64,000 nt of DNA. Origin: Eledone cirrhosa (Eukaryota). Location of the stretch: assembly GCA_964016885.1 (NCBI GenBank), contig OZ024757.1:15872001-15936000 (forward strand). The letters run 5' to 3'. Shown here piece after piece: positions 7,443-55,610 of this stretch. The translations under genes and the position numbers were made by a program. The notes under the pieces are model-generated. The model had not been told where the DNA came from and made no database searches. It was given only the letters and a program-made list of their open reading frames with translations. Numbering within the stretch: position 1 is the stretch's first letter; every line of letters begins with the position of its first letter.

Positions 7443-7642
7443 AACAAAGAGGGTATGGTAAGTTACCAGGTGGATAACGCATCAGAATATTCGATACTTA
7501 AGGTAGTAGAGTGGGGAATATGAAATTATTCAGGACCCCGGCGATTCAATTCCGGCCGTTTCGAGAGCTAGATCCGAACTGTTTGGATGTAGCTGTCGAA
7601 AGGGACGGAGTTGAATCGCCGGGGTCCTGAATAATTTCATAT
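7443..7642 (-). mobile_element. Fold-back insertion, family A (putative PLE 3' end)
   Basis: Arms 7518-7579 and 7581-7642 are inverted; tail 7443-7517; flanked by (TA)n; 8 copies in the window. Confidence 0.75.
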
Positions 7643-7680
7643 ATATATATATATATATATATATATATATATATATATAT

Positions 7681-7880
7681 AATATAGATGAGATTCTACA
7701 GGACTAGAACTGTTTCATTCATTAGAAATCATCAGGAATCTCAGAGATTCCTGATGATTTCTAATGAATGAAACAGTTCTAGTCCTGTAGAATCTCATCT
7801 ATATTAAAACTTTTATACTCTGCTATGTATTGAGTACCTTACTTACTGTGGTTACCTCCGATTCAACCCGGAATAACGTA
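7681..7880 (+). mobile_element. Fold-back insertion, family E
   Basis: Perfect 62-bp arms (7681-7742 and 7744-7805) plus ~75 nt tail; near-identical copy at 53989-54191. Confidence 0.8.
7744..7796 (+). ncRNA. Type I hammerhead ribozyme motif
   Basis: GAGATTC-CTGATGA-tTTCtaatGAAt-GAAA-CAG(ttctagtc)CTG-TA-GAATCTC: 7-bp stem I, full catalytic core, GUA cleavage triplet. Confidence 0.8.
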
Positions 7881-9997
7881 TATATATATATATATATATA
7901 TATATATATATATATATATATATATATATATATATATATATATATATATATATATATATATATAGAGAGAGAGAGAGAGAGAGAGAATTAGTATATCTAC
8001 CAACATATGTATACTGATGTATACCCATGCTAGCAAATATATATGTTATGTCTTAGTACCTTTGTGATTCTATGCAGGGGGATGCAGAACAATTATATGA
8101 AAGACGTAAAATAAGAAAATTTTAAAAATTTAGTAAGTAAGTTTAGTAATATAAATTTTAGTAAGTAAGTTAATTTTTAATTTTTAAAATTTTCTTATTT
8201 TACGTCTTTCATTTTTACATTCATTTAATTCATTAATTTATTAATTTATTATTTGTGTGACCCGAATTTTCCTGGTCATTTTTTTCGGCTGTGCGAATGA
8301 TTTTAAGCATTGTCTCTATGTGTTGGTATTTTAACGATAGTTATAGCTCTGGTTTACCCAAACTATTGAGCCCTCTGCCACACATTTCGAAGATTGTGTT
8401 TCGTGATTTCGTGAGCCGAGATTCCGATTCTCGATTATTTATATATATATATATATATATATATATATATATATATATATATATATATATATATAATTAA
8501 AAAAACGGAGTTAAAGACTCGAGTTAATCCCCTTTAATTTAATGAGCTCAAGGATTAGAATCCGGGCTCTTTATAAGACGAGATATAAAGAAAAATACAC
8601 AAAGCGGTATGTGTTCAATTATAGGGGATGGAAGACCAGTAGAGTGAAAAACATGTTGTCTACGAAAGGGATAGTGAATACATAATATCAATTAAAAGAA
8701 TAAATTAAAATGCACAAATCAACCTTTTATAGCTATAACACGTGGACAAACTCTAATGAGAGTATGTTTCGCCATAAAAAGTGAAGGTTCCATAACTCTT
8801 TGTGTATTTTTCTCTATATACTGTCTTATATATATATATATATGCATATATATGCATATATATGCATACATATATATATACATATATATATATATACATA
8901 TACATACATATATATATACATACATATATATATATTATATATATACATACATATATATATATATATATATATACATATATATATATATTATCTATATATA
9001 CATACATATATAAATATATATAAATATATGTATGTATAAATATATATATAAATATATATATATAAATATATGTATGTATATATATATATATATAATATAT
9101 ATATATACATATATATATATATATATATAAATATATGTATGTATATAAATATTGTACATAGATCTATAGAATATGCATACCAACTCTAACACATATATAT
9201 CCTAGAAACGATCGTAAAATGATGAATTTTTTTAATATAAGGAACTGTTTCTTTGTTTATTGATTATTTTATTAATGTATGTATATATATATATATAATA
9301 TATATATATATATATACATATATATAGAAATATATGTATGTATATATATATACTAGAAATTGATTGACATATAAATAAACATGTGAAACAATTACAGGGG
9401 ATAAGCCTGTGATTGTTTCATATGTTTATTTATATGTCAATCAATTTCTAGTTGATATAAAATGCTCGAATCTATTCATTGGAATCTTGGAGCATATTTT
9501 ACGGGTGATATGGCGCATGTCTATCCGGCATGAAACCCTTAATTTAATTTAATTTAATTTAATTTATCTTAATTTTGGATATATATATATGAATATATAT
9601 ATAAAATATATATATACATATATATATATATATGTATGTATATATACATACATATACATATATATATATATATGTATGTATATATACATATTATATATAT
9701 ATATATATACATATATATATATATATATATATATATATATGTATGTATATATACATATTATATATATATACATATATATATATATATATATATATATGTA
9801 TATATATATATATATATAATATGTATATATACATATATATAATATGCATATACATATATATAATATGCATATATATATATATATATATATATATATATAT
9901 ATATATATATATATATATATATATATATATATATATGTGTGTGTGTGTGTGTGTGTGTATGTATATATATATATCATATATATATATATATACATAT

Positions 9998-10175
9998 AGG
10001 AAAAGAGTCAGGTCCAGTATATTACTGGTGGCTTAGTTCGGATCTAGCCGTCGAAACGGCCGGAGCTCAGCCGTCGGGGTCCTGACTTTTTTCCTATTAC
10101 CCACTCTACTACCCTAAGTATTGAGTACTTTGGTACGTTATGGTCCACCTGGTATCTTACCACACCATCTTTGTT
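9998..10175 (+). mobile_element. Family A insertion
   Basis: GTCGAAACGGCCGGAGCTCAGCCGTCGGGGTCC followed by the family tail; short inverted left arm; in (TA)n. Confidence 0.75.
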
Positions 10176-11651
10176 GATTATATATATATACATATATATA
10201 TATATACGTATATTGGCATATATATACACACATATATATATATATATATATACGTAGGTCCCGGGTTGAGTCGGGGATAACCACAGTAAGTAAGGTACTC
10301 AATACATGGCAGAGTAAAATTTTTTTATTTTATAGAAGCTCCTTCTATAAAATTTAAAAAAAAAAATATATATATATATATATATATATATATATATATA
10401 TAGTTAGATAAAATCCTTCTCTTGAGGCTTACCTGTGTTTTCTCTTTTATACTATATATATATACACATATATATATATGTATGTGTGTGTATGTATGTA
10501 TGCTTGCATGTCTGGGAATGTTTACGCACGTACCTACGAACATACTTACGTACATGTGTACGTTTAATAAAATTTAGCAAGCAAAGCTAAATTTTTCTAA
10601 ATCTATTGATTTGTCAATGAAATAAAGTTGGTGAGAAAGTTCGAGACTGATATTTAAATGTGCCTAAATCTTTGATCTTCTTTAACAAAGCTGCAAATAT
10701 CGTGTGAAGCATGGTCGACTGGCATAGTTCACAGACACAATTGAGAAACTCCTTAAGATGGAGGCTTAGCTATCGATTTGAGTCTAAAGAACAACGGGAA
10801 TAAAATATACATCGTGAATATATTTACGATATTTATTTACATGTTTTAGCATGATTTTACAGACTTTTATTTTATTCTTTTATTATCTTATTTTATCAAC
10901 TTATTTGCGCCTCTTGGTCTTCGTCTCCATGGCTCTCTCTCTCTCTCTCTCTCTCTCTCTCTCTCTCTCTCTACCTATCTATCTATCTCTATCTCCCCCC
11001 CCCCTCTCTCTCTCTCTCTCTATATATATATATATATTAATCTATCTAACTCTCTGTCTATATCTATCTATCTATCTATCCATCTATCTGTGCTCTGCAT
11101 GCCACTATACGTATGATTGTATGTATGTATGTATGTATGTATGTATGTATGTATATATGTATGTATATATATATATATATATAGAGAGAGAGAGAGTGAG
11201 AGAGAGTGAAATATATATATATATATATATATATATATATATATACACACACACACCTCAATCTGTCTGTTTCTATCTCTTTGTATCTGTCTATCTATCT
11301 ATTCTACCTACATTTGTGTGTGTCTGTATGTACTCATCTGTCTTTCCTTTCATGAAACACACACACTCTCTCTCTCTCTCTCTCTCTCTCTCTCTCTCCC
11401 TCTCTCTCTCTGACACTGTCTAACAACGTCTGTTTCTTTATCTCTTATACGCAGTTCCAACCCGCGGGACCAGGACTCATCTCTACAGTTGGCCCACTCC
11501 GTCCCCATAACAGTGAGTAAGGAGGTGTTTTGGGGACAAAGAACACCAGAAATATTCACCACTGAGTACGGCGGAGATATTAGTAAGTTAGGTAGTGGCG
11601 GTAGTTAAAGAAAATTGAAAAAAAAAAACAAACTTATGAAACATAAGAAAG

Positions 11652-54191: not shown

Positions 54192-54227
54192 TATATATAT
54201 ATATATATATATATATATATATATATA

Positions 54228-54450
54228 TTAGTATTGGTGCTCTGAAATAACGATGTATATATAAATGTATGTATAGTATATTTGATAATATACTGTTTGG
54301 TATATTAAAAACATTTCGAAGAGCATTCGCTATGAATTTTAAAGTAGTGATTATGTCACTACTTTAAAATTCATAGCGAATGCTCTTCAAAATGTTTTTA
54401 ATATACCATACAGTATATTATCAAATATACTATACATACATTTATATATA
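54228..54450 (-). mobile_element. Fold-back insertion (single-copy family)
   Basis: Arms of about 95 bp around TTATG (54351-54355); short tail on the left. Confidence 0.7.
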
Positions 54451-54664
54451 TATATACTCACCCTCACTCCTTCTCGGAGCCCCCCCCCCCACTCTCCTGG
54501 GGAAGGACTTATGTCCGAAACGTCGTAAACTCATACCCCCACTCTCACCAAGCGTGAAACTAATAATACCTTGTAACATTTACTCCTGCGTTTGTTTGTT
54601 TGTTTTTTTGTTTTCTGTTATTTTGAACTATATATATATATATATATATATATATATATATATA

Positions 54665-55368
54665 TACAATATTAAATAAATGGAAACTATATTTATAAAA
54701 CCATATTTATTTCATTATATATATTTCAGGGATAACATATTAACAATATGCTATGCCTTCCTCAGACAAAATACAATATAAACAGTTTTATAGATAAATA
54801 GATTCGAAATACCGTAACAACATCTACTTGCATTTGAGAAGGTTGATTTGGTTGTGACAAAATTGTACACAGAGAGAAAGAAAGAGAGAGAGAAAGAGAG
54901 AAAAAGAGAGAAAAAAAGGAAAGAAAGACAGAAAACGAAGAAAAAGAAAAAGAAGAAATGCATGGAACAAAATATTTTGTTCCATGCATTTCTTCTTTTT
55001 CTTTTTCTTCGTTTTCTGTCTTTCTTTCCTTTTTTTCTCTCTTTTTCTCTCTTTCTCTCTCTCTTTCTTTCTCTCTGTGTACAATTTTGTCACAACCAAA
55101 TCAACCTTCTCAAATGCAAGTAGATGTTGTTACGGTATTTCGAATCTATTTATCTATAAAACTGTTTATATTGTATTTTGTCTGAGGAAGGCATAGCATA
55201 TTGTTAATATGTTATCCCTGAAATATATATAATGAAATAAATATGGTTTTATAAATATAGTTTCCATTTATTTAATATTGTAAATATACTCCAAATATTT
55301 GTCGAGTGCTTTTATATCAGTTATAAATATTTACTAGTTGTAACACAACAATTTAAATATAACTTTCC
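54665..55368 (+). mobile_element. Family B fold-back with a 618-bp spacerless palindrome
   Basis: Symmetry centre at 54973/54974; arms span 54665-55282; HHR core CTGAGGA at 55182; tail to 55368. Confidence 0.85.
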
Positions 55369-55418
55369 ATATATATATATATATATATATATATATATAT
55401 ATATATATATATATATAT

Positions 55419-55610
55419 AACGAAGCAAGTGTGGTAAGAAACCAGGTGGACCATAACCCACCAAAGTACTCAATACTTAGGGTAGTAGAGTGGGTAATAG
55501 GAACGAGTAGGATCCCGACGGCTGAGCTCAAGCCGTTTCGACGGCTAATTCTGTCCAGAACTAGCCGTCGAAACGGCTTGAGCTCAGCCGTCGGGGTCCT
55601 ACTCGTTCCT
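55419..55610 (-). mobile_element. Family A fold-back insertion
   Basis: Tail on the left; arms centred near 55554. Confidence 0.8.

What the first reader, a model, noticed from the sequence alone, without database searches (positions are those of the whole stretch)
7443..55610. Fixed asymmetry rule: tailed arm versus an arm ending at a family-specific point
Seen: in 7 of 8 family A copies the short arm ends at the position equivalent to TTCCTA|TTACCC. Family B short arms end at ATCGTATAT|CTACTCC, family D at TAATTTA, and PLE2 and the 25581 copy at CCCTCCCC. The fold-back centre varies between copies. Most of these endpoints offer TA microhomology to the target. Inference: two priming events on opposite strands of a (TA)n site, one at the RNA tail and one at an internal fixed site, meet at variable truncation points. 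These copies would then be a large natural footprint of the PLE integration mechanism.
Basis: partly seen in the sequence, partly recalled or inferred. Interest (0 to 1): 0.75.

Follow-up and report, generated by a model that had tools for sequence, protein, structure and literature searches.

The report
Penelope hairpins record capped RNA start
These hairpins are stubs of a known kind of jumping gene with one long and one short arm, and their turning points pile up at a likely transcription start with an extra base that probably copies the RNA cap, which suggests that each arm is a separate copy run off the front end of the gene's own RNA.

Summary
The asymmetry is real. All 75 hairpins picked by their centre alone have one tailed and one untailed arm, each ending at family-specific sites next to (TA)n. 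Four tail families run on into Penelope-like (PLE) ORFs (three Hydra-type, one Neptune-like). An inverted copy with a one-sided tail, and two internal reverse-transcription starts, are already published. In four families arm 5' ends pile up within 5 nt of an initiator-like A (135/245, 76/168, 21/62, 28/176 arms). Where the copy reaches that A, the next non-templated base is mostly C (24/27 and 15/23, against 20% expected), on tailed and untailed arms alike, as expected from copying an mRNA cap. Best reading (inferred; no RNA data): two target-primed cDNAs start at two fixed sites, run off a capped sense RNA, and are joined head to head. This argues against the published idea of self-priming on an antisense template. 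The scan had already noted start-site centres in other genomes; a search of its notes for the cap mark found none.

The parts
7445..7642 (-). Family A hairpin, old subfamily, tail on the left
   Evidence: arms 7518-7579 and 7581-7642, 90%
7680..7879 (+). Family B hairpin (my label; not named in the finding). Centre at the initiator-like A, with the cap-type extra base on both arms
   Evidence: arms 7680-7742 and 7744-7806, 100%
9998..10176 (+). Family A copy: short inverted stub plus tailed arm
25587..25690 (+). PLE2-family stub: inverted untailed arm joined to a tail-only arm (arms barely overlap)
26730..27206 (-).
28573..28722 (-). Family A copy; the tailed arm starts near the short-arm endpoint
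34440..39225 (+).
40170..40540 (+).
41040..41375 (.).
42740..47200 (+). PLE2 (Neptune/Nematis-like): inverted tailed arm 42746-44238, body with RT and GIY-YIG, untailed 3' end at 47198
47947..48146 (-). Family A hairpin
48650..48965 (.). Family C stub: tailed and untailed arm, short overlap
50990..51190 (+). Older PLE2-related hairpin
52989..53201 (+). Family A hairpin
53768..53907 (+). Family A copy; the tailed arm starts near the short-arm endpoint
53988..54192 (+). Family B hairpin
54659..55368 (+).
55414..55612 (-). Family A hairpin, young subfamily
59465..59600 (.). Family C stub: untailed arm joined to the last part of the tail
63080..63293 (.). Family A exception, tailed on both arms

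Best explanation
The hairpins are head-to-head stubs of Penelope-like retrotransposons in (TA)n, with one tailed and one untailed arm, and each arm is likely a separate cDNA primed from one cut target strand at one of two fixed internal RNA sites and run off the capped 5' end of a sense transcript. Shown here: the two outer endpoints, the one-tail rule, the (TA)n target, the link to PLE ORFs, the pile-up of centres at an initiator-like A, and the excess of a non-templated C after that A on both kinds of arm. Inferred: the endonuclease nicks both strands; the two 3' ends pair by 1-5 nt with the RNA at site 0 and at the tail end (about +80 in A, +80 to +90 in B and D, +137 in C); the promoter lies only 55-210 nt upstream, so both copies are short; the RT adds C opposite the cap, sometimes with A; the two cDNA ends are joined by a template jump or by microhomology end-joining. 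Longer copies would come from read-through or tandem RNAs. Whether one RNA is copied twice or two RNAs are used is open.
For: One-tail rule: 75 of 75 centre-selected hairpins. A (TA)n run lies outside 323 of 369 tailed and 252 of 282 untailed arm ends. Full-length copy L081 has an untailed inverted pLTR, pLTR, ORF and tailed pLTR. Tails run into ORF starts in A, B, C and E. Arm 5' ends within -5..+5 of the initiator-like A: A 135 of 245, B 76 of 168, C 21 of 62, D 28 of 176; all p < 1e-11 against uniform, with 5-11 ends in the 40 nt upstream. Exact-match hairpins centred there: 3,611 A, 1,081 B, 730 C. In B a TATA box lies 30 nt upstream in two divergent subfamilies. Next non-templated base after +1 is C in 24 of 27 B arms (hand count; scripted subset 19 of 22, 8 untailed and 11 tailed) and in 15 of 23 C arms (hand count), against 0.20 expected; at +2 ends only 15 of 44 (Fisher p 6e-6). 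An extra G from the cap marks full-length L1 insertions (PMC11702581, passage). In vitro the anole PLE cuts and extends both strands, starts at two sites that bound the tail, and gives shorter products on 5'-truncated RNA (PMC11167929). The untailed arm often reaches further 5' than the tailed one (69 vs 16 pairs raw).
Against: No RNA evidence for the start site or a cap was obtained. The initiator motif is degenerate, and I chose the landmarks by eye after seeing the data; the D site misses the consensus by one base, and A, C and D have no clean TATA box. The D peak is modest (28 of 176). The PLE2 family shows no such peak (5 of 104 arms within -10..+9; confounded by a divergent subfamily). 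In A the cap signal is weaker (10 C among 68 arms, most continuing with A), because the natural upstream T run and a second start 4 nt upstream blur it. Some C-bearing centres could be templated insertions. Symmetric centres, with C on both arms or at positions away from the start site (about 9 pairs), are also what a fold-back copy or a later symmetric deletion would give. When only truncations detectable on both arm types are counted, the arm bias falls to 32 vs 16 (p 0.03) and comes mainly from D. The sample is mostly young subfamilies from the first part of contig C1.
Confidence: 0.65

Rival explanations
1. One tail-primed cDNA runs off the capped end, turns back and copies itself; the short end is set when this second strand is cut or joined to the target.
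For: Young arms are 97-100% complementary. Six of 50 B centres have the extra C on both arms around one central base. Some pairs are exactly symmetric away from the start site.
Against: The untailed arm often extends beyond the tailed arm's 5' end (69 vs 16 raw, 32 vs 16 in the fair window), which copying the tailed cDNA cannot give without a later deletion. Loops of 0-1 nt are common and only 1 of 45 B inserts is palindromic. The short end corresponds to a true RT start in vitro (PMC11167929).
Confidence: 0.2
2. The centre marks an RNA-structure stop or cut (the 5' edge of the hammerhead), not the transcription start.
For: In B and C the centre coincides with the 5' edge of the putative hammerhead stem I (read by eye).
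Against: In A the centre lies inside the putative stem II loop, and in D about 90 nt upstream of the core. The added C is specific to +1. No centre peak lies at the predicted cleavage site in A or B (5-nt bins). Rfam found no hammerhead match, so the structures rest on motif reading.
Confidence: 0.08
3. Self-priming on an antisense template makes the head-to-head palindrome (hypothesis of PMC3846280).
For: It explains head-to-head orientation and intron retention; antisense transcription was not tested here.
Against: It gives no reason for centres at a sense-strand initiator, for a cap-type base on each arm, or for loops of 0-1 nt.
Confidence: 0.05
4. A few master hairpins were amplified as a MITE-like unit, or the palindromes are assembly artefacts.
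For: Very high copy numbers and near-constant size.
Against: 31 distinct centres in 46 A hairpins and 25 in 45 B. Contigs of runs X1-X3 show depth steps and loose ends at the same three places (one study, possibly the same sample as the assembly). A point variant occurs on either arm with the partner unchanged.
Confidence: 0.02

Closest known systems
EN+ PLE insertions with an inverted 5'-truncated copy and a one-sided tail (PMC8557442 Fig. 2 text; Adineta Pen2a, PMC3846280; D. virilis Penelope, PMC2377424)
   Same: Head-to-head inverted arm, tail at one end only, partial-tandem pLTR, promoter inside the pLTR.
   Different: Tails here are 57-140 nt, not 30-40. Most insertions are ORF-less stubs of 140-550 nt. 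The centre is fixed near an initiator and carries a cap-type base, which the passages I read do not describe.
Poseidon PAc of Anolis carolinensis in vitro (PMC11167929)
   Same: Both strands cut and extended at AT-rich DNA; two internal RT starts bound the tail.
   Different: PAc starts lie 111-118 nt inside the ORF and are described as non-homologous to the target. In the Hydra-type families here they lie upstream of the likely start codon and mostly offer TA microhomology. The paper does not treat the inverted junction.
Hydra clade of C-terminal EN+ PLEs (PMC8557442, section 11)
   Same: DKT motif, CxCX5C linker, no CCHH, (TA)n target (families A, B, C).
   Different: RWR instead of RWK. Tens of thousands of stubs. 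No tree was built.
L1 twin priming and the 5' extra G of full-length L1 insertions (PMC11702581)
   Same: A second priming from the opposite target strand; an extra base copied from the cap; microhomology joins.
   Different: L1 gives a non-overlapping inversion with a variable internal primer site and one poly(A) start. Here both starts are fixed and the same segment is copied twice.

Membership tests
EN+ Penelope-like elements | [quoted passage not shown] | tested here: met
   Family A L081 (stops present), C L223, E L198, B L107 RT part only. Pfam RVT_1 below its cut-off for PLE2, no hit for PLE1. No ORF linked to family D.
EN+ Penelope-like elements | Partial tandem pLTR plus an adjacent inverted 5'-truncated copy | tested here: met
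   L081 layout; PLE1 and PLE2 in the window.
EN+ Penelope-like elements | Tail at one end only | tested here: met
   75 of 75; longer than the published 30-40 bp.
EN+ Penelope-like elements | Hammerhead motif in the pLTR | tested here: inconclusive
   Core boxes and stems read by eye in A, B, C and D; no Rfam hammerhead match in 6 loci at E <= 1.
EN+ Penelope-like elements | Target-site duplication | not testable with these tools
   Hidden inside (TA)n runs.
EN+ Penelope-like elements | Promoter and transcription start inside the pLTR | tested here: inconclusive
   Initiator-like motif, TATA box in B and cap-type base; no RNA data.
Hydra clade | DKT in place of DKG; RWK motif | tested here: met
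   DKT in A, B and C; RWR at the RWK position.
Hydra clade | CxCX5C linker, no CCHH, CxxC and CxH near the C-terminus | tested here: met
   Read by eye in A and C; the C-terminus of B was not retrieved.
Hydra clade | (TA)n insertion preference | tested here: met
   575 of 651 arm ends abut a TA run.
Hydra clade | Phylogenetic placement | not tested
   No reference set was fetched.
Neptune/Nematis-type PLE (PLE2) | CX2-5CxxC linker and CCHH in the nuclease | tested here: met
   Read by eye; clade not resolved by a tree.
L1-type twin priming | Non-overlapping inversion with a variable internal primer site | tested here: not met
   Arms overlap as a palindrome and the internal site is fixed. It works partly like twin priming but is not that class.

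The most novel reading that the evidence does not exclude
PLEs normally integrate by dual target-primed reverse transcription, in which both cDNAs run off the cap of the same sense mRNA and jump onto each other. Hairpin centres are then a genome-written map of PLE transcription starts, and the inverted pLTR of full-length copies is a by-product of the same step. This would replace the antisense self-priming model.
Probability: 0.4. Interest if true: 0.72.

Novelty: new variant of a known kind. Interest (0 to 1): 0.52.

Why it matters
How PLEs, the closest retrotransposon relatives of telomerase, form their head-to-head inverted junctions is stated as open in PMC8557442 and PMC3846280; the latter asks whether a sense or an antisense RNA is the template. 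The cap-type base at a fixed centre gives a sequence-level answer (sense, capped) and three base-level predictions per family (start site and two priming sites) that can be tested directly. It also explains why tens of thousands of tiny stubs accumulate. The asymmetry rule alone is a large-scale confirmation of known architecture.

Tried and rejected
1) An apparent A-versus-G difference between long and short arms in the BLAST top hits is a selection artefact. The A variant is rare (257 exact matches), falls on either kind of arm, and the partner arm keeps G where it can be read. 2) Expression: no RNA holder listed, so the start site could not be tested; X1-X3 are contigs from one study. 3) Rfam gave only low-complexity miRNA-type matches below gathering scores. 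4) Folding the start-to-tail segments gave z-scores of -1.0 to +0.4, so no unusual stability; the twin hairpins of earlier notes were not tested further. 5) Random 10-kb stretches gave few copies (family A arms in 3 of 20), so most of the sample comes from pattern hits in order along C1. 6) Fixed-reference BLAST mis-called 5' ends in divergent subfamilies; more natural references were added (one search failed on a script error), and some D arms may still be called short. In one search, 14 B pairs whose short end was over-run by BLAST were left out of the pair counts. 7) A scripted base-exact tally of all outer ends was not made; end positions rest on BLAST ends and on reading (43 of 46 A untailed arms within 1 nt of the stated point). 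8) L379 is not a full-length example; it is a partial tandem. 9) Literature searches listed no paper that places PLE fold-back centres at the transcription start or reports a cap base there. Subscription papers such as the 2004-2006 Penelope studies are outside the library, and no supplements were read; Fig. S2 of PMC11167929 and the supplementary files of PMC8557442 may bear on this.
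Full report
Setting. The window is G000:C18:15872001-15936000 of a 3.0-Gb animal genome, 32% GC and rich in (TA)n. Position 0 is the last base of the untailed arm.

Observation in the window. The PLE2 endpoint is right for the two copies named, but most related arms end 12-14 nt further on (38 of 45). Family B has two or three untailed ends about 11 nt apart.

What the elements are. A full-length A copy (L081) reads (TA)n, untailed inverted pLTR, pLTR, ORF, tailed pLTR, (TA)n. 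Its protein and those of B and C carry DKT and RWR; A and C also show a CxCX5C linker and a GIY-YIG domain without CCHH, as described for the Hydra clade (PMC8557442, section 11 read). PLE1 in the window is 43% identical to the A protein over the alignment. PLE2 has a Neptune/Nematis-type linker. In A, B, C and E the tail continues into the start of the next unit, so the tail end is an internal RNA position. No coding copy of D was found. Exact tail motifs occur 29,424 (A), 15,048 (B), 4,043 (D), 4,370 (E) and 7,419 (C) times.

The asymmetry rule. Hairpins fetched by their centre alone have one tailed and one untailed arm in 75 of 75 cases: 20 A and 40 B (L357 corrected by eye) and 15 C. These were the first listed hits on C1 not already in hand for A and B (20 and 40 of 50 listed) and the first 15 of 50 for C. 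In the tail-selected and neighbour sample, 191 of 217 pairs were called long-short, 4 long-long, 5 short-short and 17 had one unclassified arm, mostly B short ends over-run by BLAST. A TA run lies outside 575 of 651 arm ends. Contigs of runs X1-X3 laid on L081 show loose ends followed by TA at 1967 and 2047, a depth fall beyond the tail, and a roughly 20-fold rise across the centre site. These come from one study, may be the same sample, and depth is not a copy number.

The centre is a third fixed point. Arm 5' ends fall within 5 nt of one A in 135 of 245 A, 76 of 168 B, 21 of 62 C and 28 of 176 D arms. All four peaks are far above uniform, and few ends lie in the 40 nt upstream. The A sits in an initiator-like context in A, B and C and one base off it in D. 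B has a TATA box 30 nt upstream in two divergent subfamilies, and A, B and C have a CCAAT-type box 60-90 nt upstream (read by eye). Exact hairpins centred there number 3,611, 1,081 and 730. Centre sequences differ between copies, so these are independent events. Family E shows no peak.

Cap-type base. Reading each arm as cDNA, the base after the complement of +1 should be G in B and C if copying had continued upstream. Among arms with a non-natural base there, it is C in 24 of 27 B arms and 15 of 23 C arms (hand counts). Left out were arms not reaching +1, single-base or direct joins, three-base centres shared by both arms (3 B and 10 C hairpins) and arms with the natural G (3 B, 4 C). The expected share is 0.20. 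The scripted subset gives 8 of 11 untailed and 11 of 14 tailed arms, counting the natural G arms in the denominator. Arms ending at +2 show C in only 15 of 44 (p 6e-6). Six of 50 B hairpins have C on both arms (two of them may be one duplication). An extra G from the cap is reported at full-length L1 insertions (PMC11702581, passages). In A the signal is weaker and blurred by the upstream T run. An RT preference for C at any RNA end, or templated insertions, could contribute.

One cDNA or two. When arms differ by more than 10 nt at the centre, the tailed arm is the shorter in 69 pairs and the untailed arm in 16. Counting only truncations detectable on both arm types gives 32 vs 16, with D 18 vs 4 and no bias in A or B. 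An untailed arm that is longer cannot be a copy of the tailed cDNA unless a deletion followed. Loops of 0-1 nt and non-palindromic inserts also fit two ends joined better than a fold-back. Against this, about 9 pairs are exactly symmetric away from the start site; one truncated RNA copied twice, fold-back or symmetric deletion would each explain them.

Comparison with print. PMC8557442 (passages, sections 11 and 15) describes the inverted copy and the one-sided tail and leaves the mechanism open. PMC11167929 (parts 1-2 of 4: main text and start of the methods) shows two RT starts bounding the tail and extension of both strands. PMC3846280 (passages) proposes self-priming on an antisense template and notes a TATA box and initiator in a pLTR. 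PMC2377424 (passages, Discussion) maps the Penelope promoter inside the pLTR. PMC4209133 (passages) notes hammerhead pairs 100-700 bp apart on opposite strands. Also seen: part 1 of 5 of 10.64898/2026.07.22.740005 and passages of PMC13000458; neither bears on the centre. Eight searches listed no paper placing the centre at the transcription start. Earlier scan notes report start-site centres in other genomes and twin hairpins behind both endpoints in this genome; a word search for the cap base found none. I had formed the start-site idea before looking (notes).

Verdict. The rule is real and is the known PLE signature at very large scale. The added value is the fixed centre with a cap-type base, which points to run-off on a capped sense RNA and is directly testable. 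Interest 0.52; new variant of a known kind.

Noticed in passing
L379:400-851: A hairpin whose long arm runs about 115 nt past the tail and is followed by a second direct unit starting again at the initiator site; it looks like a jump from one RNA's 5' end to an internal site of another. It also shows the likely start codon of family A, in a stretch that L081 lacks.
   Followed up: partly
tails of families A, B, D (window 53125-53150, 54125-54150, 40460-40485): A short shared stem-loop motif lies a few bases after the untailed endpoint; folding gave no significant stability. Earlier notes describe twin hairpins here.
   Followed up: partly
L015, L045, L048, L092, L226 (hairpin centres): Long A/T homopolymer runs start right after the +1 position, as if untemplated A tails were added to the cDNA ends before joining.
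   Followed up: no
window 23725-24310, 42468-42720, 9345-9459, 54253-54453, 8097-8212, 52836-53523: Further fold-back families with one-sided extensions; not assigned to a PLE.
   Followed up: no
window 46990-47198 and L191-L220: The PLE2-family pLTR has a TATA box, and about 40 nt downstream a canonical splice-donor-like site, as in the 5' UTR intron of D. virilis Penelope; no acceptor is conserved across subfamilies.
   Followed up: no
window 36819-37750: The 3' UTR of PLE1 holds degenerate tandem copies of the end of its own ORF (periods of about 140-295 nt).
   Followed up: no
window 11652-14159: 22-nt minisatellite, 112 copies, open in several frames.
   Followed up: no
window 1175-1467, 2998-3173, 14319-14711, 22927-23336, 31831-32614, 57453-57645: A dispersed repeat of about 190 nt, often in tandem, SINE-like; not examined.
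   Followed up: no
L197-L201 (C1 about 14.385-14.396 Mb) and L198: Head-to-tail arrays of PLE2-family units about 4.1 kb apart, with an asparagine-rich stretch in the ORF, recalling the N-rich inserts of Adineta PLEs.
   Followed up: no
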